A stretch of DNA of 64,000 nucleotides. It comes from Bdellovibrionota bacterium (GTDB lineage Bacteria > Bdellovibrionota_C > UBA2361 > JBIKUX01). Position numbers and translations under genes: made by a program. Below are positions 1,040 through 58,410 of the stretch, one piece after another (positions within the stretch are counted from its first letter, which is position 1; every line of letters begins with the position of its first letter). The stretch spans positions 25,206-89,205 of the forward strand of contig JBIKUX010000006.1 in assembly GCA_044347345.1 (NCBI GenBank), read 5' to 3'. The notes under the pieces were generated by a model. That model was not told where the DNA came from and searched no databases. It saw only the letters and a list, made by a program, of their open reading frames with translations.

Positions 1040-1132
1040 TTTTTATTAGCTAGTCGGTGTCGATATAAGAGCCTCGAGATAGGGACTTAAAGATAGTGGT
1101 GGAAATCCCTTTTAAAGTCTTAGGAACTACGT

Positions 1133-2056: not shown

Positions 2057-2110
2057 AATTTAGTAATTAGCCTCATAACTTTTTGATGTGGTGAGATAAA
2101 ATTTTCTATT

Positions 2111-3906: not shown

Positions 3907-3926
3907 AATATTAATCTAGTCCAAAT

Positions 3927-4838
3927 CTAACACTTAGATTTTTTATTAAAGTTTGCGCCTAATTGTTGTGAGCGACACTTTTTTGAGCAAGTTTTATATT
4001 GTTGTCCATATTCAATACACTGATCACACACTACAGTGTTTTTGCTACAGGAGCTGCATGAAATTCTTATAGCTCCAGGGTTACCACAGTGAGGACACAG
4101 ATTATAAATGCTTGATGGAGCAAGCTCTTGTGTTACGGCTACTCGTTTATCAAAAACAAAACATTCACCTCGGAAAAAACTATTTGGATAAGACTCTAAG
4201 TAATTTAATATCCCACCATCTAATTGATAGACTTCTTTAAAGCCTCGTTCCTTAAAGGAGAATATCGCCTTTTCGCACCTTACTCCACCCGTACAAAAAA
4301 TTAGAGTTTTTTTGTCTTTAGGAAGGGAAGCGTTGTCCAGATAGTCTGGTAATTCTGAAAATTTTTGAATATTTGGAGTTATAGCTCCATCAAAAGTGCC
4401 AAGCTGCCACTCATAAGTATTTCTTGTGTCTACAATGAGAATATCTTCACCTGACGTTAATAGTGACTGCCATTCAGATGGAGAAATATGGTTATTTCGA
4501 GTCGAAATATCATTGGTATGATTTACCTCGTGTGGCTTACGAATAAAGAGAGTAATTATCTCAGGTCGAATAACTACTTTGAGTATTTTAAAAGGCTTTT
4601 GCTTTACCCAACTTTTTTTTATCTGTAAGCCTTCGGTATTAAAGTGAGTTGCAAATCCATTTAAGAAGTGATGAAAATTTTGCTCCTCGCCAGAAACAGT
4701 TGCATTATATCCTTCAGGACTAATGATAAAGTGTCCCACTATGTTAAAAGAGCGGCCTATTTCCTCAAGATATGTTTTATGCTGAGCTAGTTCTTCAGAG
4801 GATATTTGGGTAAAGAGATAAAAAGATGCAACGATCAT
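3927..4838 (-). CDS. trhO: Rhodanese-domain tRNA U34 hydroxylase TrhO (YceA/UPF0176 family) with Cys-rich C-terminal extension
   Basis: Rhodanese active-site loop CTGGVRCEKA. C-terminus carries four CxxC pairs (CPHCG..CSSCS..CDQC..CSKKC), suggesting a zinc ribbon. Confidence 0.65.
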   Translation of the reverse strand: MIVASFYLFTQISSEELAQHKTYLEEIGRSFNIVGHFIISPEGYNATVSGEEQNFHHFLNGFATHFNTEGLQIKKSWVKQKPFKILKVVIRPEIITLFIRKPHEVNHTNDISTRNNHISPSEWQSLLTSGEDILIVDTRNTYEWQLGTFDGAITPNIQKFSELPDYLDNASLPKDKKTLIFCTGGVRCEKAIFSFKERGFKEVYQLDGGILNYLESYPNSFFRGECFVFDKRVAVTQELAPSSIYNLCPHCGNPGAIRISCSSCSKNTVVCDQCIEYGQQYKTCSKKCRSQQLGANFNKKSKC

Positions 4839-4922
4839 TAAATACTACTTCTGTATATATCTAAATAGAAACCACGCTAAAGAGGTTTTAAGGAGTAAGC
4901 AAATAACTTTAAGCTATCTGAG

Positions 4923-30100: not shown

Positions 30101-30356
30101 CTCCCATTCCTTTTATTTCGGCGTGCGGCACTAGGCTAAAAATAGCTTGGGCTAACTCTGCTGCTCTTTGGTCTCCTGAAACCTCTCCGGCAATAATAAA
30201 TATCTTAGGTCGGTCACACGCTGAATCTACTGTTTTAGCTAATACAGAATTTTCATCGACAGCTAATCCATCTTTAGCTAAAGGGATTGCGTTATTTGTT
30301 ACACCTGTCTTTGATGTTACTGAGTTTGTCATGCTGATATTTGGCATAAATTTCAA
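27123..30356 (-). CDS. Fusion protein: lipid-A-disaccharide synthase (LpxB) N-terminal domain plus MsbA-like lipid A ABC exporter C-terminal domain
   Basis: N-terminal KIFIIAGEVSGDQRAAELAQAI and IDFPTFNLRVAKKARDLKIPVLYYVPPKLWASRPSRV are LpxB-like. C-terminus has 6 TM helices, Walker A (GLSGSGKST), ABC signature (LSGGERQRIAIARAL) and Walker B (ILILDEATASLD). A single 1077-aa ORF with no internal stop. Confidence 0.8.
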   Translation of the reverse strand: MKFMPNISMTNSVTSKTGVTNNAIPLAKDGLAVDENSVLAKTVDSACDRPKIFIIAGEVSGDQRAAELAQAIFSLVPHAEIKGMGGRYSKAQGINIVVDSESAGAVMGIIEVIRSGKQLLTAFSTITKTLRTWRPDVIILIDFPTFNLRVAKKARDLKIPVLYYVPPKLWASRPSRVRALDRYVHHVATIFPFEKEFLAKHGFYRTSYVGHPFKDKFPNDVASTRTKISSELRRTLAIPSSDNVVSIFPGSRSQEVTANLPILINGLLEARKRGKPITAVIPIPSHLIAGTYELIRPHLDWCIVWQGDTKTVLFGSDIGILKSGTCNLEAAYAGLPFAMVYAVHPISATIIRKLSPLKQFSIVNILIPNTIRELLQDDFTVSNVADEVDRLLTDNAYRKQIEDNLALIRKQLSSYDERDKSENLLSYLSANETSNESKEDAALRVAKTALKLAATKPPLITENRRLLELLRPHKRRFILAILCMVCYGATDGAVPFIVKFALDKVLTNGQRDVLLIFPIILVSISFFRAFVDFGQQYLQNSVGHRVVEDLRNKLHQKLLLLSPSFFSDKSSGDLLARATADVQLVRTLLTDSTSAILRDIVRIIALTFAAFFLDPFLAFIAVIVFPLGIIPVSSFGKKMRRLSRKGQEAIGSLSSLFSEAIHGNKIVKLFTAEDYEQSRFRQANSSLTRTLIRSEKVRALVGPINEVLASIAIGTIIFYGGTTVISGSRTQGDFIAFLLAVFLMYDPFKKLSRVTGALQQGIAGSHRIFEVLDAQVTIASPENPVSMPKTNCISFENISFSYSRSSSRGALTNVTMSIEEGEKIALVGLSGSGKSTLVDLIPRFIDPTQGRLLLGGIDIRKLSLSELRSRIAMVSQHTFLFQDSIFENIRYGRRDATLEDVENAARLAYAYQFIKQLPLGFFTIIGESGMTLSGGERQRIAIARALISKSPILILDEATASLDNSSEREVQKALEVLEKGRTTLVIAHRLSTIRSANRIFVLKDGVVVEIGTHDELMDKDGEYKRLYELQFSASLVSSSLDGSSSVDNSCKKITNEIDITFPEDAGNHNDNPDQKYS

Positions 30357-35830: not shown

Positions 35831-36538
35831 TTATGGTACTACAGCAATTGTTCCTACAATTGTAGCTGAACCTGGAATTTGGCTCCAAGTCCCATTTGCA
35901 CTACCCCTTGCAATCGCTGTTAGTCTGAATCTGACTGGTGTCGTCATTATGTTACCAGAATCAAGAGTTTGACCGGATTGATCTTCTCCTAAAGCTTCTT
36001 GTTCTAATCTCTCAACTTGAACCCACTGACTTAATCCTTGATTATTTGAAATCAGATAATCAGGAGGAGTATCTGGACGAGCTTGTAATTGTCGGTGTAT
36101 TGGTTGAGCCAAAGAAACAGTTGTTGCATAGTCTCCAGCAAACGGTCCGATATTTTTAACTAAACCACCAGAATAGGGGTACATATTTCGATGACAACCT
36201 GGACTGTTGATCTCACAGTGAGGAATGCCGTTTTGATCCTGCGCACTGAGGGGGCTGTAAGCCTGATAGTTTAATGGAGAATCAAGAGTTTGTAACGCAT
36301 CCCACTGTTTTGCATTCGAGGCAATTTGAGCTGCTTGGCTATAAAGAGCTCCCTCAGCAGCGGCAAATAATTGCGCAGACTGCTCGTAATTATTTGATGT
36401 TTGCAGCATATTTCTGCCCATGAGGCTGACTACGGCAGCAACCATCACCATAGTAACAAGAAAAAAAAGAGCTACTGGCAGGGCAAACCCGGATTGCTGT
36501 GATACTTTCAGGAGCTTATTATCAGCATCGGTGATCAT
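35831..36538 (-). CDS. Minor pseudopilin, GspK/PilX-like
   Basis: N-terminal QQSGFALPVALFFLVTMVMVAAVV hydrophobic segment, without Glu at +5 (typical of GspK/PilX). Last gene of the pseudopilin operon. Confidence 0.5.
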   Translation of the reverse strand: MITDADNKLLKVSQQSGFALPVALFFLVTMVMVAAVVSLMGRNMLQTSNNYEQSAQLFAAAEGALYSQAAQIASNAKQWDALQTLDSPLNYQAYSPLSAQDQNGIPHCEINSPGCHRNMYPYSGGLVKNIGPFAGDYATTVSLAQPIHRQLQARPDTPPDYLISNNQGLSQWVQVERLEQEALGEDQSGQTLDSGNIMTTPVRFRLTAIARGSANGTWSQIPGSATIVGTIAVVP

Positions 36539-37215
36539 ACCGTTTTTCTCCTCATGCCTACACTACTTTGGAAAGGAATCAGACGTGGATTATTTGTTTG
36601 ATTTTTTACCTCGATCTGAAACGCTATACTAAGGGCGTTATTTTCTATAGTAAAAACTTTACCGTTGTTAATCTCTGGGGCACGAATTCTAGAGGTCATT
36701 AATAGAGCAGAATTGAGCGGATCTGTAGCGGGTGTATTGCAGGTTCCATCTGATTGTCTTGATGGTGGATTATTCATAAGAATCTGACCACGGACAAGCT
36801 CATTTTTGGCTGGATTGAAACGGTAACCAACGTACCAAAGTTGTTGGCCTCTACCGGCGCTTTGGCTTACTGAATCGTGGCTGACAAAAAATCTAATATC
36901 GTTCCCGTCAGTGCTGATTTCAACCTGATTAGGACACATTTCAAGAGCTGAATTAATCCCACCAAAGTATGGAGATAGTATCCCAGCCATTCTCACTTCT
37001 GCGAGTAATGAGTGTAAAATGTAACGAGCTTGCATTGATGATTCAGCAGCTTGAGTCTCAAAAGATAGTGTGCTGTAAGCAGAGGATGTTGCACTAGCAA
37101 TACTTAAGATGGTGACACCAAGTAAGACTACTGCTACAAGCATCTCCATGAGTGTATAGGCTTGACTATTTTTAACCTTAGAAGAGATACGATGAAGTGG
37201 TTTACCTGAAGTCAT
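36535..37215 (-). CDS. Minor pseudopilin, GspJ/PilW-like
   Basis: Prepilin-type N-terminus QAYTLMEMLVAVVLLGVTILSIA (Glu at +5, Ala instead of Gly at -1). Confidence 0.55.
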   Translation of the reverse strand: MTSGKPLHRISSKVKNSQAYTLMEMLVAVVLLGVTILSIASATSSAYSTLSFETQAAESSMQARYILHSLLAEVRMAGILSPYFGGINSALEMCPNQVEISTDGNDIRFFVSHDSVSQSAGRGQQLWYVGYRFNPAKNELVRGQILMNNPPSRQSDGTCNTPATDPLNSALLMTSRIRAPEINNGKVFTIENNALSIAFQIEVKNQTNNPRLIPFQSSVGMRRKTV

Positions 37216-37226
37216 GCAAATTCCAT

Positions 37227-37700
37227 CTATCTAAAATCAGCTAAAACAGTTGAGAATTGGTAGCTGATGGGAGCATAACCTGCTCCCATCTTATTGCGTA
37301 CAACCAGATTTATCTCTACCCAGTCAGGTAAAATAGCTGACGGAGCACTCATACGAGCTATATATTCAATATTTATTGAGTAGTTTGCTTTTTCAATAGA
37401 TGTAGCAGAAGTTGGAGAAAAAATTGTTTGAGTGACAACTTGGTTTTTGGTAATCGCATCACTGCCAAAGATGCTCACGATATTTTGAGCATAAGGTTTG
37501 CTTCGCATTGATTCAATTAAACCTTGAGCTGCAAACATAGCTTCTGTATTTCTTCGAGAATGAGACGTTGAGTGAATAGATCTTATTAAAAGTCCCCCAA
37601 AAGCAATAAGTGTCATGCTTATGAGCGAGAGCGCAATCATGTTCTCAATAATTGAGATACCTGAGTTTTTGCCTCGAAATTGTTTTTTAAATCTGAACAT
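37227..37700 (-). CDS. Minor pseudopilin, GspI/PilV-like
   Basis: Prepilin-type N-terminus GISIIENMIALSLISMTLIAFGG (G|xxxxE). Confidence 0.6.
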   Translation of the reverse strand: MFRFKKQFRGKNSGISIIENMIALSLISMTLIAFGGLLIRSIHSTSHSRRNTEAMFAAQGLIESMRSKPYAQNIVSIFGSDAITKNQVVTQTIFSPTSATSIEKANYSINIEYIARMSAPSAILPDWVEINLVVRNKMGAGYAPISYQFSTVLADFR

Positions 37701-37715
37701 ATCTTTTACACTTGC

Positions 37716-38237
37716 TCACTTAATCCCTTGCTCCATTGACACAGATCCAAATGGATTAACTATCACCGTCTGTTTTATTGTCCCTAGTTGTATTGTTAAA
37801 GTAATAGGATTTAAAATAAGTTCTCCGTTTTGATAGACATGACCCAATCCAGAAAACGTGAACTGTTGAGGCAGTTCTTCCCACTTAATCAGTTTTTTAG
37901 TTAATTCTTCCTTAAAGCTAAATTCGTCGTCGCGAAGCGTTCCTGTGCCAGCTACATCGTAAAAAAAACCGTTCTCTTCAAAAGATACCGTTACTGGTCT
38001 ATGAGATCTTATTGCTTCAAAGCGAGAATGTTGTAACTTCAGTGCTATTGTCCGTCTTATCACGCCTAGACTTTGCCATTTGGTAGTTTCAGAAATACTA
38101 GCGTATGCTACACCTAAAACTATATTTAAAATTCCTACTGAAATAATGAGCTCTAAAAGAGTAAAACCTCGACAATAGTTTAATTGAGATCTTTTTATCT
38201 CAGCCCATTCCTTCATACTCAAGGTCCACTGTATCAA
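37716..38237 (-). CDS. Minor pseudopilin, GspH/FimT-like
   Basis: Canonical prepilin motif RGFTLLELIISVGILNIVLGVAYA (G|FTLLE). Confidence 0.7.
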   Translation of the reverse strand: MIQWTLSMKEWAEIKRSQLNYCRGFTLLELIISVGILNIVLGVAYASISETTKWQSLGVIRRTIALKLQHSRFEAIRSHRPVTVSFEENGFFYDVAGTGTLRDDEFSFKEELTKKLIKWEELPQQFTFSGLGHVYQNGELILNPITLTIQLGTIKQTVIVNPFGSVSMEQGIK

Positions 38238-45407: not shown

Positions 45408-46565
45408 ATGAGTTTCGCAATCTCAAGTACTGTCGATGGGGAGAATGTTCAGCTTCTAATCAGTACGGTGCGTAATTTTGTTGAAAAAGAAATTACGCCA
45501 CAAGTCAAAAAAATAGAGGAGCTAGGCTCAATTCCTCGGACTATTTGGCAGGCACTAGGATCTCTCGGGTTATTGGGAATTACTGTACCTGAGGAATATG
45601 GTGGTGTTGGTCTTGGCTACTATGCTCACTGTTTGGTCATGGAAGAGATAAGTCGAGTATCAGCTTCATTGGGCTTAAGCTACGGTGCTCATTCAAATCT
45701 GTGCGTAAATCAAATAATGCTTAATGGCTCAGATGCTCAGAGGGCAAAATATCTACCTAAATTAGTTGCAGGAGATTATATAGGGGCACTTGCTATGAGC
45801 GAGAGCTCGTCTGGCTCCGATGTAGTAAGTATGAAACTTAAAGCAGAGCGTCGTGGTAACAGCTATTTTCTTAATGGTTCCAAAATGTGGATTACCAATG
45901 GCCCACAAGCAGATATAATTGTGGTTTACGCTAAAACTAACCCAAGTTTAGGATCACGCGGAATTACAGCCTTCATTATTGAGCGAAACTTCAGTGGTTT
46001 TAAATCTGCTCAAAAGTTAGACAAACTTGGTATGCGTGGGTCAGAAACATCTGAATTAATTTTTGATTCGTGTGAAGTCCCAGCTGAAAACGTCTTGGGT
46101 GATGAAGGTGAAGGGGTACGTGTTTTAATGAGTGGTTTAGACTATGAGAGGATAGTTTTATCCGGCGGTCCAGTAGGTATTATGCAAGCTTGTTTAGATA
46201 CAGTATTACCGTATGTTCGAACTCGCGAACAATTCGGTAAGCGTATTGGTGATTTTCAACTAGTTCAAGGTAAGCTCGCCGATATGTACACCGCATTGGG
46301 CTCAAGTAGAGCCTACCTTCATCATGTAGCTAAGCTATGCGATATGGGCAAGGTCGCTAAAGAAGATGCAGCGGCAGTAATTCTTTACTGTGCTGAATCA
46401 GCAACAAAAGTGGCACTTGATGCTATTCAACTGCTCGGAGGTAATGGATACACTTCCGATTATCCGACAGGTCGTTATCTTAGAGATGCAAAGTTATATG
46501 AAATTGGTGCTGGAACATCTGAGATTAGGCGAATGTTAATCGGCAGAACCTTAGTTGATCGGTGA
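45408..46565 (+). CDS. Isovaleryl-CoA dehydrogenase (acyl-CoA dehydrogenase family)
   Basis: ACAD fold motifs ([10 protein letters not shown]..., C-terminal [35 protein letters not shown]). Context: directly followed by MCCase beta, a hydratase and HMG-CoA lyase. Confidence 0.85.
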
Positions 46566-48178
46566 TTATGACAATCCTTACTACATCGATTGATATAAAC
46601 TCCTCTCGCTTTAAAGAACAGTATTCAGAGATGGCAACACTAGTGTCGCACCACTCATCTCTCGTAAAGCGAGCGGCGTTAGGTGGAGGACGGGAAGCAG
46701 CCATTAGGCACGAACAGCGAGGGAAGTTATTGCCGAGAGATAGAATAGCGGCACTAATTGACAAGAACACTGAGTTTTTTGAGCTAAGTCCGCTTGCAGC
46801 ACATAGCGTTTATGATGAAGAGGTTCCTGGTGCTGGAATAATCACCGGACTCGGTTGGATATCTGGGCATCTTTCGGTAATCGTAGCGAATGATCCAACG
46901 GTAAAAGGTGGTACTTACTTTCCCTTGACTGTTAAAAAACATATAAGAGCTCAAGAAATTGCCTTAGAAAATCATTTGCCGTGTGCATACTTAGTAGATT
47001 CTGGTGGCGCATACCTACCGCGACAAGATGAAGTTTTTCCGGATCGAGATCACTTTGGCCGCATATTCTACCTTCAGGCTAGAATGTCAGCGTTCAAAAT
47101 TCCGCAACTTGCTATTGTACTTGGTTCCTGCACGGCTGGTGGTGCTTATGTGCCGGCAATGTCAGATGAAGCTATCATGGTAAAAGGAAATAGCACTATA
47201 TTTTTAGGTGGCCCACCTCTTGTGCGAGCTGCTACGGGAGAAAATATTGATGCTGAGTCATTAGGCGGAGCTGAAGTACACTGCACTGTGTCAGGAGTAG
47301 CCGATCATTTTGCTGATTGTGAGCAGGCGGCTTTTGATAAGGCAAGAGCAATTTTTGCTCGTTATCCGGGAGTAAATTCTGATAAATGTTATAGATATAA
47401 TTTTGCAAAGACTCCCAGATACAATCCTGAAGAAATATATGGAATTGTCCCACGAGACCTAAGAAAACAGTACGATGTAAGAGAGATTTTAGCTCGAATA
47501 GTTGATGATTCCTATTTTGATGAGTTTAAGGCTCGGTATGCACGTACCATTGTTTGTGGCTTTGCTGAAATTGGTGGACATCTCATCGGAATATTGGCAA
47601 ACAATGGAATTTTATTTTCAGAATCAGCATTGAAGGGTGCACATTTTATTCAGTTGTGTTCTCAGCGTGATATACCGCTTCTTTTTTTACAAAATATAGT
47701 GGGATTTATGGTTGGCTCCAAGGCAGAGCACGAAGGTATTGCAAAACATGGAGCAAAACTTGTTGCTAATGTAGCTACTACACATGTTCCAAAAGTCACT
47801 GTACTGATTGGAGGAAGTTTTGGAGCGGGTAATTATGCAATGTGTGGAAGAGCCTATAATCCTCGTTTTTTATTTTCTTGGCCAAATTCTCGTATATCTG
47901 TGATGGGAGGTGAGCAAGCGGCAAGAGTGATGTCAATTATTCACGCTGAAAAGCATCATAGAAATGGTCAATTATGGACAGACGATGATGAGGTATCGCT
48001 GACTGATCCGATTCGAGCTCAATATGAAATTCAAGGGAATCCTTTTTATGCTACTGCACGCCTTTGGGATGATGGTATTCTTGATCCTGCGAAAACAAGA
48101 GATCATATTATACAAGCGTTCAATGCTACGCAGTTTGCACCACTTGAAAAGCCATTAAGTAGCGTACTTCGAATGTGA
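46562..48178 (+). CDS. Methylcrotonyl-CoA carboxylase carboxyltransferase (beta) subunit
   Basis: 538 aa. Carboxyltransferase-domain motifs. Start overlaps the ivd stop by 4 nt. Confidence 0.85.
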
Positions 48179-48193
48179 AAAAGTAAGTTATAA

Positions 48194-49045
48194 ATGTCAA
48201 ATACTTGCGATAAAATTCTACCATCACCGCTGCTAATAAATGAAAATCAGGAAAAGTCGATTGTATATATAACTCTAAATAGACCTGATGCTAGAAATGC
48301 TTTTACTCGCAAAATGTTGGATATTTTACACAGTTGGCTAGTAAATTTTCCAACGACGTATTCAAGACATCAATACCGAGCAGTAGTTCTTAGGGCTAAT
48401 GGGGAGGATTTTTGTGCTGGTGCAGATCTTTCTTGGATGGCTTCAGCACAAGCAATGACTCCTGAAGAAAATGAAGCAGATGCTAGAGTGCTTGCTGAAG
48501 TTTTAAGTATGTTATCTAATTTACCCATTCCCACACTGGCTGAAGTAAAGGGAAGGGTAATCGGAGGCGGACTTGGTTTTGTAGCCGCTGTAGATATAGC
48601 TATTGCTACAGACAGCTTTCACGGTAAATTTAGCGAGTCCTTACTTGGATTAGTACCTGCCACAATAGCCCCATACATAGTACGAGCGATAGGTGATCGT
48701 GCTACAAGGGCGCTTTTTTTAACAGCAAATAGTATAAATGCGAAAAAGGCAGTTGAATTTGGACTTCTTCATGAAGTAGTTTCAACGGATCAACTATCCA
48801 ACCGTTGTGATGAAATACTAAATGCTATTTGTGCATGCGCTCCTAAATCTCAAATGGCAATTAAGGAGCAACTTTCCTTTTTGAGGGAAGAGCTTCAAAA
48901 AAAGCCGTTTATCCATATCCAGCAAGACTCAATTTCTCGGTTAGCAAAGGTGAGAGTATCAGATGAAGCAGTAGAGGGTCTAAACGCTTTTATAGAAAAA
49001 AGAGATCCTGTTTGGCGCAAAAAGACAGATCAAATAAAGGCTTAG
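48194..49045 (+). CDS. Enoyl-CoA hydratase (crotonase family; probably methylglutaconyl-CoA hydratase by context)
   Basis: Crotonase oxyanion region ANGEDFCAGADLSWM. Confidence 0.75.
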   Translation: MSNTCDKILPSPLLINENQEKSIVYITLNRPDARNAFTRKMLDILHSWLVNFPTTYSRHQYRAVVLRANGEDFCAGADLSWMASAQAMTPEENEADARVLAEVLSMLSNLPIPTLAEVKGRVIGGGLGFVAAVDIAIATDSFHGKFSESLLGLVPATIAPYIVRAIGDRATRALFLTANSINAKKAVEFGLLHEVVSTDQLSNRCDEILNAICACAPKSQMAIKEQLSFLREELQKKPFIHIQQDSISRLAKVRVSDEAVEGLNAFIEKRDPVWRKKTDQIKA

Positions 49046-49049
49046 TAAC

Positions 49050-49994
49050 ATGGCTAATCTAAAGCCTATAGATGGTGATGATAATCATGCTGTGATAGTT
49101 GAAGTAGGCTTAAGAGATGGTTTACAAGCCATCAAGAAAATTTTAACTCCAGAACAGCGAGCAGAATTAATTTTATCTTTAATTGAGGCAGGTATTCATC
49201 ACATTGAAGTGGGGAGCTTTGTTTCGCCAAAAAAAGTACCACAACTTTCAGACACAGGAATTGTGGCAGAGTTAATTGGCATACAAGAGGGCATTATTAC
49301 CAGCGCGCTTATTCCAAATGAGCGAGGACTTTACGAAGCACTCCAAACATCAATAGACGAATATGCTGTTTTTATCGGTGCTACTGATGAATTTACTCTC
49401 GGAAATATAGGAAAAACCGTTCAACAAGCGTTGGAGACATATCAAGAAATTATTAAGATAGCGTTCGCTCGAGGAAAAAAGGTCAGAGGCTATCTTTCAT
49501 GTATTGTGCGATGTCCTTATTCTGGCGCGGTTAGTTCAATTCAAGTGGCACGATTAGTGGATAAGTTACTTGAAATAGGTTGTTACGAAGTTTCGCTTGG
49601 TGAGACATTAGGAGTTGCAACTCCAGCGGACATAGAAAAAGTGCTTCATAATTTGGGAAATATATCTCTAACAAAACATGTAGCCTTGCACCTTCATAAT
49701 ACATTTGGTCAGGCATTAGCGAATATATTGAGGGGGCTTGATTTGGGAATAAGACGCTTTGATGCTGGAGTAGGAGGATTTGGCGGTTGTCCATTTGCGC
49801 CAGGTTCAGCTGGTAATTTGGCCACTGAAGATTTAGTTTATCTACTCAATGGTTTGGGTATAAAGACGGGAATAAACATCAATGCCCTTCCACAAATTAC
49901 TCGAAAAATTTCAACTCTTACTGGCGAGAGTGCGCACTCTCTAGTAAGCAAGGCACTTGAAAATCAGCTCTCATGTAAATCTGTATTTCCTTGA
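49050..49994 (+). CDS. Hydroxymethylglutaryl-CoA lyase
   Basis: VEVGLRDGLQ signature and TIM-barrel pattern. Confidence 0.85.
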   Translation: MANLKPIDGDDNHAVIVEVGLRDGLQAIKKILTPEQRAELILSLIEAGIHHIEVGSFVSPKKVPQLSDTGIVAELIGIQEGIITSALIPNERGLYEALQTSIDEYAVFIGATDEFTLGNIGKTVQQALETYQEIIKIAFARGKKVRGYLSCIVRCPYSGAVSSIQVARLVDKLLEIGCYEVSLGETLGVATPADIEKVLHNLGNISLTKHVALHLHNTFGQALANILRGLDLGIRRFDAGVGGFGGCPFAPGSAGNLATEDLVYLLNGLGIKTGININALPQITRKISTLTGESAHSLVSKALENQLSCKSVFP

Positions 49995-50009
49995 GGGAAA
50001 GGAAATACT

Positions 50010-52763
50010 ATGCAGCAAAATAAAATCTTATGGGAAGCATCGAAAGATAAAAAAACCAAATCGCAAGTATACAAGTTTATTGATACAGCTCGAAAGGATA
50101 CCGGCCGAGATTTTTCAAACTATAAGGATTTGCACTTATGGTCTTGCAAATATCCCGAAGAGTTTTGGTCATTAGTGGCAAGATTTACAAAATTTTGTGA
50201 ACAGCATCAAAATATACCTTATTCAAGCTCTGATAAATCATTTTGCTCTTCTCGTTTTGGTGATGGTGTAAATTTTAATTATGCTGAACGGGTAATTTAT
50301 CCTCCGTTCAAAACTGCTTCAGATACAGCTATAATTGAGGTAAATGAGAGTGGTGAGTGGAGCTCTTATTCTTTTGAGCAGTTGCGAACCTTAGTTTGTA
50401 GTATTAGTGATTGGTTCCATAATTTTGGAGTAGGTAAAAATGATCGTATCGCAGGAATAATCACTAATTGTGCTAATGGTGTATGCAGCTATTTAGCATC
50501 TGCTAAATTAGGAGCTATCTGGGCTTCGTGTTCACCAGAGTTTGGTGATTCTGCTATAATAGACCGCTTGCTAATGATTAATCCTGCAGTTCTAGTTGTA
50601 TCCTTGTTTAGCGCTTATAACGGAAAAAAATATGACCATAGTGAGCGAATAGCTAGCCTGCTTAAAAAAATTAGCTCGATTAAATCTGTTTTGATTATTG
50701 ATCATGATATATCTGATGATACACTAAATAAATTTGCAGATAGTATTCCAAGTACAATAACGTGTGCGCACATTTCTCAAACTAAATGTGCTAATAATAA
50801 CCAGAAATTTGAACAATTTCCTTTTTCTCATCCTTTAACTCTATTATTTTCATCTGGCACGACTGGTAAACCTAAAGCCATACTGCATGGAGCAGGAGGG
50901 ACATTACTTCAGCATCTCAAGGAGCATCAACTTCATTGTGAGTTTAATCATGATGCAATCGTTTGTTTTTATACCTCAACTGGTTGGATGATGTGGAATT
51001 GGTTAATTAGTTCTCTTGCATCTGGATCTTCAATTGTGCTTATAGATGGCTCACCGATGTTTCCATCCGTCAGTCGTCTTTGGAGACTAGTTGATCAATT
51101 TAATATTACAGCTCTTGGTGTTAGCCCGAGATATTTAAGCACTGTTGAAAAAGAGAATGGATATAGCCCAATTAAAGAACATAAGTTAAGTAGTCTTTCT
51201 CTGTTACTGTCTACCGGCGCTCCATTACTCGGGACACAATTTGATTGGATTTATAATTCAGTAAAAAAGGATTTGATGGTGGCTTCTATTTCTGGAGGAA
51301 GTGACATCATTTCTTGCTTTGCATTAGGAAACATTCTTGCACCGGTCAGGCGTGGAGAAATTCAAGCAGCTGGACTCGGGATGGATATAGCAGCATTTTC
51401 AGATGATGGAACAGAGTTAACTGATACCGTTGGAGAGTTAGTCTGCCGGACACCTTTCCCTTCAATGCCGGTTGGATTTTGGAATGATCCTAATAACACT
51501 CTGTTTAATCAGACTTATTTTTCTCGTTATCCGAGCGTTTGGATGCATGGCGATAGAGTTATAATTTATGATCATGGCGGATTGGAAATTTTAGGCAGGT
51601 CTGACACCGTACTTAATCCAGGTGGTGTGCGAATTGGCACAGGTGAAATATACTCGGTCATCTCTAAGATACCGTGGATTACGGATGTAGTAGCAGCCCC
51701 ATTAAAGAGACAAGGAGATGAAGATATTATTTTAATTGTATCATTAGCTTATAATGATAATTTGACTGAGGATAAGATAGAAGAAATTCGAAAATTAATT
51801 CGTTCGGAGCTTTCACCACGTCATGTACCAAGGTTTATATTTTCTGTTTCTAGTCTTCCGCACACTATGAATGGTAAAATCTCAGAAGTAACAGTTAGAA
51901 AAATTTTGAATAATGAGGATATAAATAATACCACTTCTCTTGCTGACTCTTCAGTTTTGACTGAATTAGTAGCGATTAGAAAAATCATAATGACCGATGC
52001 AGATTATCAGGCTAGATGTGATCTCTCGATTGTTATACCTGCTTATAATGAAGAGAACAGGTTGCCTGCTACTGTACTAAGTTATCGAACTTGGTTACTA
52101 CAAGAGCAGCAGACTTTAAATCGACTTGGTATTTCATCTATAGAAATAATTGTTGTAGATGATGGAAGTATTGATAGAACAGCAGAGGTAGTTGCATCTT
52201 TTTCATCATCCTTTTTACCGGTGCGTTTTGTTAGACATTCAAGAAATCTTGGCAAGGGAGCAGCAGTTCGTACAGGTTCACTGCAAGCAATAGGTAAATT
52301 CATTCTTGTTGCAGATGCCGATGGATCTACTCCCATTGAAGAGTTAGAGCGATTATTAATTCATATGAATAGTGGACAAGCACAAATAGTTGTTGGCTCA
52401 CGCGTTGTTACAAATAATAAAGTTAGGCGCCATATAAAATGGTATCGTCGTTTTCTGGGATGGCTCTTTAGAGGCCTAGTGCATAAGATAGCATTCGGAG
52501 ATTTACAAAATATACATGTTGAAGATACTCAATGCGGTTTTAAGCTAATGACTTATGAAGTAGCACAGGCTATATTTACAAAAGCTACCATTGATCGTTT
52601 TGCATGGGATGTCGAATTTTTACGGGTTGCTGCTCTGCAAGGGTGCACAATATTAGAGGTGCCAGTTTCATGGCATCATGTTACTGGCTCACGGATCAAT
52701 TTATTAACAGCACCTTTTTCTATGTTACTAGATCTTGTCAGAATTAGGCTAAGACATAGATAG
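50010..52763 (+). CDS. Fusion: acetoacetyl-CoA synthetase (AMP-dependent synthetase) N-terminal ~650 aa plus GT2-family glycosyltransferase (DPM1-like) C-terminal ~250 aa
   Basis: AACS-like N-terminus (LWEASKDKK...LHLWSCKYPEEFW). AMP-binding motif SSGTTGKPK. C-terminal IVIPAYNEENRL...VVDDGSIDRT...VADADGSTP are GT2 signatures. Confidence 0.75.
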   Translation: MQQNKILWEASKDKKTKSQVYKFIDTARKDTGRDFSNYKDLHLWSCKYPEEFWSLVARFTKFCEQHQNIPYSSSDKSFCSSRFGDGVNFNYAERVIYPPFKTASDTAIIEVNESGEWSSYSFEQLRTLVCSISDWFHNFGVGKNDRIAGIITNCANGVCSYLASAKLGAIWASCSPEFGDSAIIDRLLMINPAVLVVSLFSAYNGKKYDHSERIASLLKKISSIKSVLIIDHDISDDTLNKFADSIPSTITCAHISQTKCANNNQKFEQFPFSHPLTLLFSSGTTGKPKAILHGAGGTLLQHLKEHQLHCEFNHDAIVCFYTSTGWMMWNWLISSLASGSSIVLIDGSPMFPSVSRLWRLVDQFNITALGVSPRYLSTVEKENGYSPIKEHKLSSLSLLLSTGAPLLGTQFDWIYNSVKKDLMVASISGGSDIISCFALGNILAPVRRGEIQAAGLGMDIAAFSDDGTELTDTVGELVCRTPFPSMPVGFWNDPNNTLFNQTYFSRYPSVWMHGDRVIIYDHGGLEILGRSDTVLNPGGVRIGTGEIYSVISKIPWITDVVAAPLKRQGDEDIILIVSLAYNDNLTEDKIEEIRKLIRSELSPRHVPRFIFSVSSLPHTMNGKISEVTVRKILNNEDINNTTSLADSSVLTELVAIRKIIMTDADYQARCDLSIVIPAYNEENRLPATVLSYRTWLLQEQQTLNRLGISSIEIIVVDDGSIDRTAEVVASFSSSFLPVRFVRHSRNLGKGAAVRTGSLQAIGKFILVADADGSTPIEELERLLIHMNSGQAQIVVGSRVVTNNKVRRHIKWYRRFLGWLFRGLVHKIAFGDLQNIHVEDTQCGFKLMTYEVAQAIFTKATIDRFAWDVEFLRVAALQGCTILEVPVSWHHVTGSRINLLTAPFSMLLDLVRIRLRHR

Positions 52764-55140: not shown

Positions 55141-58100
55141 TTACTTGTTTACCTTAGAAAATATAAAACTTATTTTCCTTTCCGACTGGTTACTTAAGTT
55201 TACAATTATCTCACCTTTTTTGTTTTTTAGACTGTCTTCTGTCATTGAGTTTAAATTATGCTCCCTAACTTCTTTGATTGAGATAGAAGCCGCCAAAGTT
55301 TGTGCTGATATGTAATCAGAAAATTGTTTGATGATTTCACTGTCACGAGTGTCTTCAACAAATACCATCAAGTCTATTTTATCACTTATTATTAGGTTAG
55401 CGTCTTTTCTGGCTTGTTGGATGTGACGCACCAAATCGCGGGCAACCCCTTCCTTTTCGAGCTCGGGAGTTACGGAAACACTAAGTGCGATAATAAGTGA
55501 GTTATTGTCTTGACTGATGCTCGCTACACAAATCTGGTTTACATCTGATTTATCGCTTCCTTTAGGTACTAGGCGGATTGTGTATTCGCAAGGATCTAAT
55601 TTTATTCCGTTACAAATTACCTGACCATCATTGGTACGGTACCAATTGCCTGTTTTTGATGAGGCAATCAGATTCTTCATTTCATTACCTAATCTTGGAC
55701 CGAGCACCCTTGAATTGAGCTGAAGCTGTTCTTCCGCGAAAGCGCTAAAACTCTCTTCTAATACAACTGACTTTACATTTAATTCCTCTGCAATTAGAGA
55801 AGTAAAAACGGCAAGTTGATCGGCGGACTTACCGGCAAGAATAACTTTTTCAAGAGGAAGGCGCGTGCGGAGTCCTTTTGATTCTCGAATAGAGAGTCCT
55901 GCTGAGCAAACCTCGCGAGTTAAATCCATTGCAGTGATAAGATTCTTATTATTAGGTAAGCTTGTTGCTAGAGGCCACGCCTCAAGATGTACGCTTTTTC
56001 TTCCCGTGAGAGTTCTATACAAATGCTCAGATAGGAGAGGCAATATTGGAGCTATTACTCGACATAAACCGATGAGTGTTAAAAAGAGAGTCTCATAGGC
56101 TACCTGTTTTTTTTCACTGATGCCACTTTCCCAGAATCGTTCTCTTGAACGACGAATGTACCAATTAGTGAGTACATCAAGAAAATTTTTAATTTCTTCG
56201 CATGCCTTTGGGATATCGTAATTAGTAAGTGCTACATCGGTTTCTTCAATTAAAATCCGGAGTTTTGCTAATATATATTCATCAATTTGCGACAGAGAGT
56301 CGTTGTAATTTGGGGGTACTCTACCAGCTAATGTATCTTGTGCATGATCATGGTTAGCTGTAACTCTATCTGTGTTTGCATAGAGAGTAAAAAAGTAGGC
56401 TGCATTCCAAAGAGGATTTAGCACAGTTCGCACTATCTCGGCTATCCCTTTACCCTCGCGGTCAATAAGAAGGTCGCTACCCTTTATTATAGGGGATGAT
56501 ATTAAAAACCAACGAAGTGCATCGGCTCCGAGTTTATCAAATACTTCATCTGGGCTCGGATAATTTCTTAGTCTTTTGCTGAGTTTCTTTCCTTCTTCGT
56601 CAAGAACTACGCCGTGACACATGCAGGTTTTAAAGGGAGGCTTATCAAATAAAGCAGTACCTAGAACCATGAGAGTGTAAAACCAGCCGCGTGTTTGAGC
56701 TACATACTCAACGATAAAGTCAGCAGGAAAGTGTTGCTCGAACCACTCTTTATTTTCGAAAGGATAATGCATTTGGGCAAACGGCATTGAGCCAGATTCA
56801 AACCAGCAGTCAAATACCTCGGGGACCCGGCGCATCATGCTTTGGCCGGTTGGGTCATCGGGATTAGCGCGGATGAGCTGATCTATGGCGGGGCGATGTA
56901 GATCGGTGATATGTGCACCAAAATCACGTTCAAGTTCTGCAATACTGCCATACACGTCTGTGCGCGGATAAGATAGATTATCACTTTTCCAAACAGGGAG
57001 TGGAGTTCCCCAAAATCTAGTTCGACTGATTGACCAGTCTCGGGCGTTTTCTAACCATTTACCAAATTGACCGTCTCTAATGTGGCTGGGTATCCAATTA
57101 ATAGTTTGGTTAAGCTCAACCATTCGGTCTTTAAATTCAGATACTTTTACAAACCAAGAGCTTACTGCTTTGTAAATAAGAGGCGTATCGGTCCGCCAAC
57201 AATGGGGATAGTTGTGGAGATATGTTTCATGCCGTACTACTTTGTTTTCGGCTTTTAAGTGTTTGATAATAAGTTTATTGGAATCAAAAACTTGAATATT
57301 GTGATATGGACTTACTTCGGCGGTAAATCTTCCTTGGCTGTCGACTGGGCATATAATAGGTATTCCGTTGGCCTTGCAGAGGTCAAAATCATCTTCTCCA
57401 AATCCGGGTGCACAGTGCACGACGCCAGTTCCGTCAGTAGTGGTAACAAAATTACCAGACAAAATTGTAAAAGCCGGCTTTACATTGGCGAAAAATGGAA
57501 ATAGTGGTTCATACTTGCGATTAATGAGGTCTTTCCCGGTGATATTTCCGACATTTTTCCCCCCATCAAGCTCACTTTGATAGCGCTCGACACTGGCGTT
57601 GGCTAAAATAACGAATCTGTCTTTAAGACTGTAAATGGCGTAGTCTATATCCTCTCCGACAGCTAGTGCCAGATTAGATGGTAAAGTCCAAGGGGTCGTT
57701 GTCCAAGCGAGGATATCAAGGGGGCCAGGATCGTTTGGATTGGGGGTTAGGGTGAAGCGTACCGTGAGTGCCGGATCTTGACGCTGTCTGAAAGCGTTAT
57801 CAAGGCGAGTTTCAAAATTTGAAAGAGGGCTTTCTACTGCCCAGGAGTAGGGCATGACTCTGTGGCCTTCTGTTACGAGACCCTTGCTCCACAACCGCTT
57901 AAATGCCCAAAGAACGCTCTCCATGTAGGAGATGTCCATAGTTTTGTAATCGTTTTTGAAGTCTACCCAACGTGCCTGGCGAGTGACAAATGTCTCCCAC
58001 TCTTTGGTGTAACGAAGAACAGAGTCTCGGCAGTGGGCGTTAAATTTATCTATGCCGAAGTCTATAATGGCTCGTTGTCCAGAAATTCCTAATTCTCGCT

Positions 58101-58410
58101 CAGACTCCATTTCTGCGGGAAGACCGTGGCAGTCCCATCCGAAACGGCGCTCTACCCTCAACCCTTTCATTGCTTGGTATCTCGGGATGGTATCTTTTAT
58201 AAATCCAGTCAAAAGATGACCGTAGTGAGGAAGTCCGTTGGCAAACGGGGGACCGTCGTAAAAAACGAATTCACCACCATTTTTGGTTGTGATACTTTCT
58301 GAGAAAATGCTCTCTACCTTCCAGTAATCGAGTACTTCTTCTTCTATTTTTGGATAATTGGGCTCTCTCGACAAAGGGGCATAACAAAAGGTGGGCTTAG
58401 TCGGATCCAT
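55141..58410 (-). CDS. ileS: Isoleucyl-tRNA synthetase, type 2 (eukaryote-like)
   Basis: HIGH motif PPFANGLPHYGH. KMSKS variant KLSKRL. 1089 aa. Confidence 0.9.
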   Translation of the reverse strand: MDPTKPTFCYAPLSREPNYPKIEEEVLDYWKVESIFSESITTKNGGEFVFYDGPPFANGLPHYGHLLTGFIKDTIPRYQAMKGLRVERRFGWDCHGLPAEMESERELGISGQRAIIDFGIDKFNAHCRDSVLRYTKEWETFVTRQARWVDFKNDYKTMDISYMESVLWAFKRLWSKGLVTEGHRVMPYSWAVESPLSNFETRLDNAFRQRQDPALTVRFTLTPNPNDPGPLDILAWTTTPWTLPSNLALAVGEDIDYAIYSLKDRFVILANASVERYQSELDGGKNVGNITGKDLINRKYEPLFPFFANVKPAFTILSGNFVTTTDGTGVVHCAPGFGEDDFDLCKANGIPIICPVDSQGRFTAEVSPYHNIQVFDSNKLIIKHLKAENKVVRHETYLHNYPHCWRTDTPLIYKAVSSWFVKVSEFKDRMVELNQTINWIPSHIRDGQFGKWLENARDWSISRTRFWGTPLPVWKSDNLSYPRTDVYGSIAELERDFGAHITDLHRPAIDQLIRANPDDPTGQSMMRRVPEVFDCWFESGSMPFAQMHYPFENKEWFEQHFPADFIVEYVAQTRGWFYTLMVLGTALFDKPPFKTCMCHGVVLDEEGKKLSKRLRNYPSPDEVFDKLGADALRWFLISSPIIKGSDLLIDREGKGIAEIVRTVLNPLWNAAYFFTLYANTDRVTANHDHAQDTLAGRVPPNYNDSLSQIDEYILAKLRILIEETDVALTNYDIPKACEEIKNFLDVLTNWYIRRSRERFWESGISEKKQVAYETLFLTLIGLCRVIAPILPLLSEHLYRTLTGRKSVHLEAWPLATSLPNNKNLITAMDLTREVCSAGLSIRESKGLRTRLPLEKVILAGKSADQLAVFTSLIAEELNVKSVVLEESFSAFAEEQLQLNSRVLGPRLGNEMKNLIASSKTGNWYRTNDGQVICNGIKLDPCEYTIRLVPKGSDKSDVNQICVASISQDNNSLIIALSVSVTPELEKEGVARDLVRHIQQARKDANLIISDKIDLMVFVEDTRDSEIIKQFSDYISAQTLAASISIKEVREHNLNSMTEDSLKNKKGEIIVNLSNQSERKISFIFSKVNK

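What the first reader, a model, noticed from the sequence alone, without database searches (positions are those of the whole stretch)
50010..52763. Acetoacetyl-CoA synthetase fused to a DPM1-like GT2 glycosyltransferase domain
The last gene of the leucine-catabolism cluster encodes a complete AMP-dependent acetoacetyl-CoA synthetase. This fits the context, because HMG-CoA lyase releases acetoacetate. It continues without a stop into a ~250-aa GT2 domain with the IVIPAYNEE, VDDGSxDRT and DADGSTP motifs typical of polyprenyl-phosphate sugar transferases. There is no obvious metabolic logic linking ketone-body activation to lipid-linked glycosyl transfer. It is either an unusual bifunctional protein or a gene-fusion artefact. 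The GT2 domain starts near 52.0 kb.
Basis: seen in the sequence. Interest (0 to 1): 0.6.

Follow-up and report, generated by a model that had tools for sequence, protein, structure and literature searches.

The report
Ketone-body enzyme fused to lipid-sugar transferase
The last gene of a leucine-breakdown operon in an uncultured bacterium really does encode one 917-residue protein joining a complete acetoacetate-activating enzyme to an intact, membrane-surface sugar-transferase domain; the fusion is genuine and conserved in a distant relative, but it is very rare and its purpose is unknown.

Summary
ORF 50010-52763 (+) encodes 917 aa. Residues 2-657 match the acetoacetate--CoA ligase models end to end and above their curated cut-offs. 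A short disordered linker follows, then a ~250-aa GT2 (GT-A) domain.

It is not an artefact. The identical protein is encoded on 14 contigs; the four retrieved come from four JGI samples. An orthologue (P0001, 48% identical, 51% vs 39% GC) has the same architecture in the same five-gene leucine-catabolism (liu) cluster. The two proteins are sisters in both domains and share GT2 indels absent from stand-alone relatives, so the fusion arose once.

The GT2 domain keeps 53 of 54 near-invariant family positions. Its top 19 structural neighbours are all polyprenyl-phosphate glycosyltransferases (ArnC, GtrB, DPMS). It has the amphipathic juxtamembrane helix but no transmembrane helix.

HMMER searching of 1.84 billion representative proteins found no further AACS-GT2 protein.

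Best reading: a bifunctional, peripherally membrane-bound enzyme with two chemically independent activities. No functional coupling could be shown. This is a new domain combination of known families, of moderate interest.

The parts
50010..52763 (+). Whole fusion gene: 917 aa plus stop, encoding AACS, linker and GT2 domain
   Evidence: Single ORF. The identical gene is on 14 contigs; four retrieved, from four JGI samples. Orthologue P0001 aligns across residues 7-917.
49995..50003 (+). Shine-Dalgarno-like GGGAAAGGA, 6 nt before the ATG and directly after the HMG-CoA lyase stop at 49992-49994
   Evidence: Read directly from the sequence.
50010..51989 (+). Acetoacetate--CoA ligase (AACS) module, residues 1-660. 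It carries the SSGTTGKPK adenylate motif at residues 281-289 and the C-terminal NGK lysine at residue 623
   Evidence: NF002937 713.7 bits > 639 and TIGR01217 654.9 bits > 520.9, covering the whole model. It keeps 148 of 168 columns that are >=95% conserved in 31 stand-alone AACS. The model is well folded.
51990..52010 (+). Inter-domain linker, residues 661-667 (MTDADYQ). Residues 664-668 have pLDDT < 50. The linker is 7 residues shorter in P0001 and has no Met there
   Evidence: Full-length AlphaFold model; pairwise alignment.
52011..52760 (+). GT2 / GT-A domain, residues 668-917: an ALG5/DPM1-like polyprenyl-phosphate glycosyltransferase catalytic domain with no transmembrane helices
   Evidence: PF00535 at 7e-29. 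It is 40-50% identical to stand-alone 236-290-aa proteins annotated 'dolichyl-phosphate beta-glucosyltransferase'. Model pLDDT is 91.8. The top 19 Foldseek PDB hits are ArnC, GtrB and DPMS.
52314..52322 (+). DXD motif: D769-A770-D771 within VADADGSTP
   Evidence: Invariant in all 58 aligned family members. It aligns with the DAD of P. furiosus DPMS and of GtrB. GtrB D94/D96 bind the metal-UDP (PMC4728340).
52440..52493 (+). Amphipathic, basic and aromatic helix, residues 811-828 (WYRRFLGWLFRGLVHKIA); the counterpart of juxtamembrane helix JM1
   Evidence: Helix in both models. Residues 802-823 are the most amphipathic stretch of the whole protein, muH up to 0.74. It aligns with GtrB WVKQFTAKMFYKV, which is JM1, residues 130-146.
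52503..52517 (+). Five-residue insertion (LQNIH, residues 832-836) between the JM1 helix and the DTQCGFK motif; specific to the fused clade
   Evidence: Present in the window protein and in P0001 (LPDIN) and absent from all 56 stand-alone relatives.
52524..52544 (+). DTQCGFK motif, residues 839-845, with invariant Asp839
   Evidence: D, Q, C, G, F and K are invariant in all 58 sequences. Asp839 aligns with the Asp of KDPVSGF in P. furiosus DPMS.
52710..52757 (+). C-terminal helix, residues 901-916 (APFSMLLDLVRIRLRH). It is a possible JM2 counterpart; the protein ends where GtrB's TM1 would begin
   Evidence: Helix in both models. It is only moderately amphipathic, muH 0.33. The JM2 assignment is inference.
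45408..49994 (+). Upstream liu genes in the same orientation: isovaleryl-CoA dehydrogenase 45408-46565, carboxyltransferase (MCC beta) 46562-48178, enoyl-CoA hydratase 48194-49045, HMG-CoA lyase 49050-49994
   Evidence: Pfam. The same order is found in L001, with 74, 71, 40 and 54% identity.

Best explanation
This is a genuine, vertically inherited gene fusion. It produces one polypeptide with two intact catalytic modules that are most likely chemically independent.

The N-terminal module is acetoacetate--CoA ligase. It uses ATP and CoA to convert the acetoacetate released by the HMG-CoA lyase encoded just upstream into acetoacetyl-CoA, completing leucine catabolism.

The C-terminal module is a transmembrane-less GT-A domain of the polyprenyl-phosphate glycosyltransferase type (ALG5/DPM1/GtrB-like). 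[quoted passage not shown] There it would transfer a hexose, probably glucose from UDP-glucose, onto polyprenyl phosphate. The product would be the lipid-linked sugar donor for a periplasmic GT-C transferase.

The fusion arose once in the ancestor of two uncultured lineages. Its consequences are strict co-expression of the transferase with the liu operon and tethering of the AACS at the membrane.

Shown here: the ORF, its recurrence, its conservation, domain identities and intactness, absence of TM helices, and single origin. Inferred: both activities, the donor sugar, the polyprenyl-phosphate acceptor, membrane docking, and the independence of the two reactions.
For: The ORF is continuous and the identical sequence is on 14 contigs; the four retrieved come from four samples.

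Orthologue P0001 has the same architecture and the same liu synteny, in a genome with 51% rather than 39% GC. A second contig from the same sequencing run (L094, 51% GC) is syntenic with window 47-6455 and carries the best ProRS match in the whole database, 72%. So the two carriers are related at a second locus as well.

The fused pair are sisters in NJ trees of both domains, 200/200 and 199/200 bootstraps, and share indels absent from 56 stand-alone GT2s.

AACS scores above the equivalog cut-offs. GT2 keeps 53 of 54 near-invariant columns, including DAD and DTQCGFK. Between the two fusion proteins it is 52.4% identical, slightly better conserved than AACS at 46.7%.

The top 19 structural neighbours are ArnC, GtrB and DPMS. 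A JM1-like amphipathic helix is present and no TM segment is found.

There is no excess of promoter- or terminator-like sites and no SD before M661, and P0001 has no Met at the junction. The other carrier has a PMT_2 (GT-C) gene 118 bp upstream of its liu cluster.

There is a precedent for fusing a TM-less polyprenyl-P synthase behind another domain: M. tuberculosis Ppm1 D1-D2 (PMC3485146).
Against: No activity was measured.

The GT2 domain scores far below the curated cut-off of every specific NCBIfam polyprenyl-P transferase model; the best is PgfS at 61 bits against a cut-off of 500. Donor and acceptor are therefore guesses based on family resemblance and on annotations of relatives.

There is no TM segment in cis and no identified membrane partner in the window. 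No GT-C gene lies within the 64 kb.

Survival of the fusion across deep divergence suggests some selective advantage. 'Independent activities' does not explain that beyond co-expression or anchoring.

The inter-domain geometry is not determined: pTM is 0.68 and only two sequences span both domains.
Confidence: 0.65

Rival explanations
1. Sequencing or assembly artefact: two adjacent genes, AACS and a stand-alone GT2, were joined by a missed stop codon or an indel.
For: M661 lies exactly where a stand-alone GT2 would start; compare the 7-9-residue N-termini before LSIVIPAYNE in relatives. Stand-alone AACS models end at about residue 657.
Against: The identical 917-aa ORF is on 14 contigs. The four retrieved come from four JGI samples and are 100% identical over the gene. 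A fragment entry, P0241, also spans the junction. A 48%-identical orthologue assembled by another pipeline is fused in the same way, with a shorter linker and no Met.
Confidence: 0.02
2. The GT2 domain no longer works as a transferase. It serves only as a membrane anchor, an oligomerisation module or a nucleotide-sugar-sensing regulator of the AACS.
For: No TM helices and no identifiable partner. A clade-specific 5-residue insertion lies next to the acceptor-side JM1 region. There is no metabolic link between the two reactions.
Against: All 35 invariant and 53 of 54 near-invariant family residues are kept, including both metal-binding Asp residues and DTQCGFK. Between the two carriers the domain is slightly better conserved than the AACS half. 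A pure anchor would not need the nucleotide-sugar site.
Confidence: 0.1
3. True functional coupling. Either the two reactions belong to one pathway, for example leucine-derived acetoacetyl-CoA/HMG-CoA feeding mevalonate-derived polyprenyl phosphate, which is the transferase's acceptor. Or the GT2 domain glycosylates a non-polyprenyl acceptor derived from the AACS product.
For: The fusion has survived long divergence together with the liu cluster. Fusions often mark functional links. The clade-specific insertion sits near the acceptor site. HMG-CoA is both a leucine-catabolism and a mevalonate-pathway intermediate (established knowledge).
Against: No mevalonate-pathway gene lies in the window or the related contigs. 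No AACS-GT2 neighbourhood exists in Legionella or near the closest stand-alone AACS genes. Other AACS fusions carry CoA or carrier-protein chemistry, never GT2. The structural neighbours are polyprenyl-P enzymes.
Confidence: 0.1
4. One gene but two proteins: internal translation initiation at M661, or proteolytic cleavage in the linker, releases a free GT2 enzyme.
For: There is an in-frame ATG at 51990, and the linker is predicted to be disordered.
Against: There is no Shine-Dalgarno-like sequence before that ATG. Promoter-like sites are not enriched: 12 found against 10.2 expected. P0001 has no Met at or near the junction. Cleavage cannot be assessed in silico.
Confidence: 0.08

Closest known systems
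Bacterial acetoacetate--CoA ligase (AACS, EC 6.2.1.16; TIGR01217 / NF002937), e.g. the stand-alone last gene of the Legionella liu cluster
   Same: Full-length match above the curated cut-offs. ANL motifs are present. It occupies the same position after HMG-CoA lyase in a leucine-catabolism cluster.
   Different: Only about 42% identical to the nearest stand-alone enzymes. It carries a 257-residue C-terminal extension that no stand-alone AACS has. 20 of 168 near-invariant positions are changed, and several of these changes are shared with P0001.
Stand-alone bacterial ALG5-like GT2 proteins (236-290 aa), annotated 'dolichyl-phosphate beta-glucosyltransferase' by JGI and NCBI
   Same: 40-50% identity over about 95% of the domain, and the same invariant residues. 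These proteins also lack an N-terminal TM helix.
   Different: Here the domain is fused behind an AACS. It has two clade-specific insertions. The family itself appears uncharacterised, and I found no conserved gene neighbourhood for it.
Structurally solved polyisoprenyl-phosphate glycosyltransferases: GtrB (5EKP), P. furiosus DPMS (5MLZ), ArnC (9ASC)
   Same: GT-A fold, DXD motif and a JM1-type amphipathic helix. They are the best sequence and fold matches in the PDB, with TM-scores 0.56-0.73.
   Different: Those enzymes carry 2-4 transmembrane helices after JM2. This protein ends at the JM2-like helix. Sequence identity is only 21-27%.
M. tuberculosis Ppm1 (Rv2051c), a D1-D2 fusion; and human DPM1, which uses DPM2/3 in trans
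   Same: A TM-less polyprenyl/dolichyl-phosphate sugar synthase catalytic domain sits at the C-terminus of a fusion (Ppm1) or depends on separate membrane partners (DPM1) (PMC3485146; PMC4728340).
   Different: In Ppm1 the N-terminal partner is an integral membrane domain with six TM segments, and it is encoded as a neighbouring ORF in other species. Here the partner is a soluble ANL-family CoA ligase from an unrelated pathway, and no unfused neighbour arrangement was found.

Membership tests
Acetoacetate--CoA ligase (TIGR01217 equivalog / NF002937) | Whole-protein score above the curated cut-off, with end-to-end model coverage | tested here: met
   NF002937 713.7 bits > 639, residues 2-657 on model positions 2-652 of 657. 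TIGR01217 654.9 bits > 520.9. The acetate and propionate ligase models fall far below their cut-offs.
Acetoacetate--CoA ligase (TIGR01217 equivalog / NF002937) | ANL-superfamily catalytic motifs: the SSGTTGxPK adenylate loop and the C-terminal catalytic Lys | tested here: met
   FSSGTTGKPKAILHG and PHTMNGKISE are present and conserved in P0001. 148 of 168 near-invariant AACS columns are kept.
Acetoacetate--CoA ligase (TIGR01217 equivalog / NF002937) | Acetoacetate-dependent acyl-CoA formation | not testable with these tools
   Only context supports it: the gene lies directly downstream of HMG-CoA lyase, as in Legionella.
Polyisoprenyl-phosphate glycosyltransferases (GT2; DPMS/GtrB/ArnC/ALG5 type) | GT-A fold GT2 catalytic domain with a DXD motif | tested here: met
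   PF00535 at 7e-29. D769-A-D771 is invariant in the family alignment. Model pLDDT is 91.8. The top 19 fold hits are ArnC, GtrB and DPMS.
Polyisoprenyl-phosphate glycosyltransferases (GT2; DPMS/GtrB/ArnC/ALG5 type) | Amphipathic juxtamembrane helix JM1 in the beta5-6 loop | tested here: met
   Helix 811-828 aligns with GtrB JM1 (PMC4728340). It is the most amphipathic segment of the protein, muH up to 0.74.
Polyisoprenyl-phosphate glycosyltransferases (GT2; DPMS/GtrB/ArnC/ALG5 type) | Second juxtamembrane helix JM2 | tested here: inconclusive
   A C-terminal helix at 901-916 is present in the models. It is only moderately amphipathic, muH 0.33, and 0.12 for the P0001 counterpart.
Polyisoprenyl-phosphate glycosyltransferases (GT2; DPMS/GtrB/ArnC/ALG5 type) | One or more transmembrane segments in the same chain | tested here: not met
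   No credible TM segment: the best 19-residue hydropathy window (1.88) is a charged and Pro-containing strand region inside the AACS core. Human DPM1 and Mt-Ppm1/D2 also lack TM segments, so this does not exclude the mechanism.
Polyisoprenyl-phosphate glycosyltransferases (GT2; DPMS/GtrB/ArnC/ALG5 type) | Membership of a curated, functionally defined subfamily (PgfS, PpgS, ArnC, halophile Dol-P hexose transferase) | tested here: not met
   Best scores are 61, 57, 51 and 27 bits against cut-offs of 500, 370, 529 and 375.
Polyisoprenyl-phosphate glycosyltransferases (GT2; DPMS/GtrB/ArnC/ALG5 type) | Transfer of a sugar from a nucleotide sugar to polyprenyl phosphate | not testable with these tools
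   Needs a biochemical assay.
Stand-alone bacterial ALG5-like GT2 family | Shared invariant residue set and about 40-50% identity over the whole domain | tested here: met
   All 35 invariant columns and 53 of 54 columns >=95% conserved are kept. E-values are 1e-48 to 1e-55.
Stand-alone bacterial ALG5-like GT2 family | Single-domain architecture, about 236-290 aa | tested here: not met
   The domain is fused behind a 660-residue AACS. Only two such proteins were found among 1.84 billion representatives.
Glucosyl-3-phosphoglycerate synthase (GpgS, soluble-acceptor GT-A) | Score above the NF010496 cut-off and best structural similarity | tested here: not met
   29 bits against a cut-off of 262. 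GpgS structures rank below all the polyprenyl-P enzymes, from rank 24, with 17-20% identity.

The most novel reading that the evidence does not exclude
The fusion may mark a real and so far unknown functional link between leucine/ketone-body catabolism and envelope glycosylation. One version is that leucine-derived acetoacetyl-CoA/HMG-CoA is channelled into polyprenyl-phosphate synthesis at the membrane, where the same protein glycosylates the carrier. Another is that the GT2 domain, with its clade-specific insertion next to the acceptor site, glycosylates a new acceptor derived from the AACS product.
Probability: 0.1. Interest if true: 0.7.

Novelty: new variant of a known kind. Interest (0 to 1): 0.4.

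Why it matters
Both halves belong to well-known enzyme families. Their combination appears to be undescribed and is confined to two related uncultured lineages among about 15 billion catalogued proteins. If the fusion is only a co-expression or anchoring device, it is another example, like M. tuberculosis Ppm1, of a TM-less polyprenyl-phosphate sugar synthase borrowing a partner. In that case it is mainly a caution for annotators: the protein should be named bifunctional, not 'acetoacetate--CoA ligase'. If the two activities are coupled, it would reveal an unexpected tie between amino-acid or ketone-body catabolism and lipid-linked sugar supply. It would also offer a handle on the uncharacterised bacterial ALG5-like GT2 family.

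Tried and rejected
- Artefact hypothesis: rejected.
- Unfused AACS + GT2 neighbour arrangement: not found in Legionella (L002), the SAR324 MAG (L092) or a JGI contig (L093).
- Further fusions: the word-indexed search of 5.8 billion proteins found only P0001. The HMMER scan of 1.84 billion representatives found only P0001 and a fragment of the query.
- Ten other long AACS proteins: their extensions are PP-binding/thioesterase, ECH, hydrolase, GNAT or hexapeptide domains, never GT2.
- Conserved neighbours of 26 stand-alone GT2 loci, looking for a GT-C or flippase partner: none recurrent. The only pattern was a phosphohexomutase in three actinobacterial loci.
- GpgS-like soluble-acceptor reading: rejected on scores.
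- Internal start at M661: not supported.
- Taxon assignment: no rRNA, tRNA or Rfam hit. ProRS gives only about 60% identity to named Protochlamydia, Parachlamydiaceae, Waddliaceae and Bdellovibrionota entries, so the phylum remains uncertain.
- Technical failures: the AFDB Foldseek library was unavailable. The mapping of stand-alone termini onto the query was spoiled by terminal-gap placement and was ignored.
- Literature searches for this architecture or for bacterial ALG5-like enzymes found nothing relevant.
Full report

Yes. The window has a single ORF at exactly 50010..52763 on the + strand, 917 aa with an ATG start. A GGGAAAGGA Shine-Dalgarno-like stretch precedes it, 15 bp after the stop of the HMG-CoA lyase gene.

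- Pfam places AMP-binding at residues 103-417, AMP-binding_C at 560-623 and Glycos_transf_2 at 673-844.
- The NCBIfam acetoacetate--CoA ligase models match end to end, residues 2-657 on model positions 2-652 of 657. Both are above their curated cut-offs: NF002937 713.7 vs 639 bits, and the TIGR01217 equivalog 654.9 vs 520.9 bits. The acetate and propionate ligase models fall far below theirs.
- The four genes upstream, in the same orientation, are isovaleryl-CoA dehydrogenase, the carboxyltransferase subunit of methylcrotonyl-CoA carboxylase, an enoyl-CoA hydratase and HMG-CoA lyase. A FadB-like gene converges from downstream.
- GC content shows no discontinuity at the junction.

**2. Artefact or real fusion?**

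It is real.

- The exact 917-aa protein is encoded on 14 contigs. The four retrieved (L003-L006) come from four different JGI samples: 3300044527, 3300042508, 3300042365 and 3300042518. They are 100% identical to the window across the gene.
- A contig-end fragment entry (P0241, residues 423-917) also spans the junction.
- A second protein, P0001 (911 aa, from run SRR19430208), is 48% identical over 99% of the length. The alignment passes through the junction without interruption. Its linker is 7 residues shorter and has no Met.
- P0001 sits in the same five-gene order, IVD-MCCbeta-ECH-HMGL-fusion. The partners are 74, 71, 40 and 54% identical, in a contig of 51% GC against 39% for the window and with unrelated flanks.
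- The best ProRS relative of the window in the whole 5.8-billion-protein collection (72%) comes from that same run. Its contig has 51% GC and is syntenic with window 47-6455.

So the two carriers are related at a second locus as well. The fusion has persisted through a divergence at which housekeeping proteins are only about 70% identical.

**3. Single origin and selection**

- In neighbour-joining trees the two fused proteins are sisters in the AACS part (200/200 bootstraps, 33 sequences) and in the GT2 part (199/200, 58 sequences).
- They share a 5-residue insertion (LQNIH / LPDIN, residues 832-836) between the JM1-like helix and the DTQCGFK motif. It is absent from all 56 stand-alone relatives. 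They also share a 5-8-residue insertion after the first helix.
- Between the two proteins the GT2 part is 52.4% identical and the AACS part 46.7%.
- The window protein keeps 53 of 54 GT2 columns that are >=95% conserved in stand-alone enzymes, and all 35 invariant ones. These include VDDGS, NxGKG, DAD, GSR and DTQCGFK. It keeps 148 of 168 such AACS columns.

Neither half looks like it is decaying.

**4. How rare is it?**

- A HMMER scan of 1.84 billion representatives, standing for about 15 billion proteins, found only the query's own fragment and P0001 with both domains.
- Ten other long AACS-like proteins carry PP-binding plus thioesterase, enoyl-CoA hydratase, alpha/beta-hydrolase, GNAT or hexapeptide domains. 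This is chemistry that makes sense after a CoA ligase, and none is GT2.
- A scan of GTDB species genomes gave only stand-alone GT2 genes, at most 43% identical.
- In Legionella the AACS is a stand-alone last gene of the liu cluster with no GT2 after it. The nearest stand-alone AACS genes elsewhere have no GT2 neighbour either.

**5. What is the C-terminal domain?**

- Its nearest relatives (E 1e-48 to 1e-55, 40-50% identity, about 95% coverage) are 236-290-aa single-domain bacterial proteins. JGI and NCBI label them dolichyl-phosphate beta-glucosyltransferase or GT2 family protein. They start directly at the first strand, with no N-terminal TM helix.
- No curated NCBIfam subfamily is reached. 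PgfS, PpgS and ArnC score 51-61 bits against cut-offs of 370-529.
- By sequence, the best PDB matches are P. furiosus DPMS (7e-14), GtrB and ArnC.
- The AlphaFold model of the domain is confident, with pLDDT 91.8 and pTM 0.90. Its 19 best Foldseek PDB matches are all ArnC, GtrB or DPMS, with TM-scores 0.56-0.73. GpgS and WrtF come after them.
[quoted passage not shown] The TM part is supplied by other chains in human DPMS (PMC4728340).
- Here DXD is D769-A-D771. Helix 811-828 (WYRRFLGWLFRGLVHKIA) aligns with GtrB JM1. It lies within the most amphipathic stretch of the whole protein, residues 802-823, muH up to 0.74.
- A C-terminal helix at 901-916 may correspond to JM2, and then the protein ends. 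No TM segment exists anywhere in the 917 residues.

The domain therefore works like a polyprenyl-phosphate glycosyltransferase catalytic subunit of the TM-less kind (DPM1, Mt-Ppm1/D2). Its donor and acceptor remain untested.

**6. Architecture of the whole protein**

The full-length model has mean pLDDT 87.7 and two well-folded modules. The AACS ends in a helix at 648-662. Residues 664-668 are disordered (pLDDT < 50). GT2 strand 1 starts at 672. pTM is only 0.68, and just two sequences span both halves, so the mutual orientation is not determined.

One inference follows. The GT2 domain hangs by about 9 residues from the C-terminal subdomain of the AACS. In ANL enzymes that subdomain rotates between the adenylation and thioester-forming states (established knowledge of the superfamily). 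Membrane docking of the GT2 would therefore hold the mobile AACS subdomain close to the membrane.

There is no sign of separate expression. No SD-like sequence precedes M661. Promoter- and terminator-like sites are at background level: 12 vs 10.2 and 2 vs 2.2. P0001 has no junction Met.

**7. Most likely function**

I commit to a bifunctional protein with two chemically independent activities.

- The AACS half activates the acetoacetate released by the adjacent HMG-CoA lyase.
- The GT2 half, docked on the inner face of the cytoplasmic membrane by its JM helix, loads a hexose onto polyprenyl phosphate for a periplasmic GT-C enzyme. The hexose is probably glucose from UDP-glucose, judging only from the annotation of relatives.

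A weak supporting hint is that the other carrier encodes a PMT_2 (GT-C) protein and a PlsC-type acyltransferase immediately upstream of its liu cluster, on the same strand with a 118-bp gap. The window has no homologue of that PMT_2 protein and no GT-C gene among the ORFs annotated.

The fusion's effects would be obligatory co-expression with leucine catabolism and membrane tethering of the AACS. The precedent is M. tuberculosis Ppm1. There a TM-less DPM-like synthase (D2) is fused behind another domain (D1), which other actinobacteria encode as a separate neighbouring ORF (PMC3485146). The difference is that here the partner is a soluble enzyme of an unrelated pathway, and no unfused neighbour stage was found.

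**8. Rivals**

- Artefact: about 2%.
- Catalytically dead anchor or sensor domain: about 10%. The complete retention of the nucleotide-sugar and metal site argues against it.
- Real metabolic coupling: about 10%. Examples are a leucine-HMG-CoA-mevalonate-polyprenyl-phosphate route, or a novel acceptor. It is attractive because the fusion has been retained so long and because of the clade-specific insertion next to the acceptor side. No gene-context evidence supports it.
- Two proteins from one gene: about 8%.

**9. Novelty and verdict**

Both modules are members of known families. The AACS membership tests are met. The PI-GT resemblance is strong, but the 'TM in cis' and curated-subfamily tests are not met. 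The combination is, as far as these collections and the searchable literature show, undescribed and confined to one uncultured lineage of uncertain phylum.

I rate it a new variant of a known kind, with moderate interest (0.4). It is a clean, well-supported oddity that yields a simple set of experiments, but without evidence yet of new chemistry.

Noticed in passing
window 27123-30356 (-): A second fusion protein in the same window, 1077 aa. Lipid-A-disaccharide synthase LpxB (TIGR00215 196 bits > cut-off 190, residues 49-413) is joined to an MsbA-like lipid A exporter (TIGR02203 561 bits, residues 463-1031). It lies next to the Kdo transferase gene at 25821-27095. A quick literature search found nothing describing it.
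   Followed up: partly
L001 2694-5310: In the other fusion carrier, a PlsC-type acyltransferase and a 548-aa PMT_2 (GT-C, ArnT/PMT-like) gene lie directly upstream of the liu cluster on the same strand, with a 118-bp gap. The PMT_2 protein is a possible consumer of the lipid-linked sugar made by the GT2 domain. No counterpart lies in the 64-kb window.
   Followed up: partly
window 45408-52763; L001 5428-12736; L002: Both fusion-carrying liu clusters lack the biotin-carboxylase (MCC alpha) gene. The Legionella cluster has that gene between the hydratase and the lyase, and also has a thiolase.
   Followed up: no
window 4923-6536, 13066-14964, 55141-58410, 35831-38237: Gene content hints at an intracellular or predatory lineage: a class-I-type ProRS, an SctV/FlhA-like export-gate protein whose C-terminal half matches the models poorly, a type-2 IleRS with DUF5915, and pseudopilin genes. 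Named ProRS relatives at about 60% are Protochlamydia, Parachlamydiaceae, Waddliaceae and Bdellovibrionota MAGs. The phylum is not resolved. No tRNA, rRNA or Rfam family is in the 64 kb.
   Followed up: partly
P0292-P0386 (proteins): AACS-like ligases with other C-terminal fusions exist: PP-binding + thioesterase, PP-binding + GNAT or hexapeptide transferase, enoyl-CoA hydratase, and an Abhydrolase_3 esterase.
   Followed up: partly
L027 8702-, L029 5020-6618, L030 8816-: In three actinobacterial MAG loci the stand-alone ALG5-like GT2 gene is immediately followed by a protein that I read, from its sequence, as a phosphohexomutase (PMM/PGM). An S-adenosylhomocysteine-hydrolase-like gene lies nearby. 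This is the only recurrent neighbourhood seen for the family.
   Followed up: no
L003 (JGI Ga0453759_0000078, 71,012 bp) vs window: By coordinate arithmetic, this identical contig starts at about window position 33,029 and runs about 40 kb beyond the window's end. More sequence of the same organism is therefore publicly available for finding GT-C partners or isoprenoid-pathway genes. L004 differs from the window by a single 2-bp gap outside the fusion gene.
   Followed up: no
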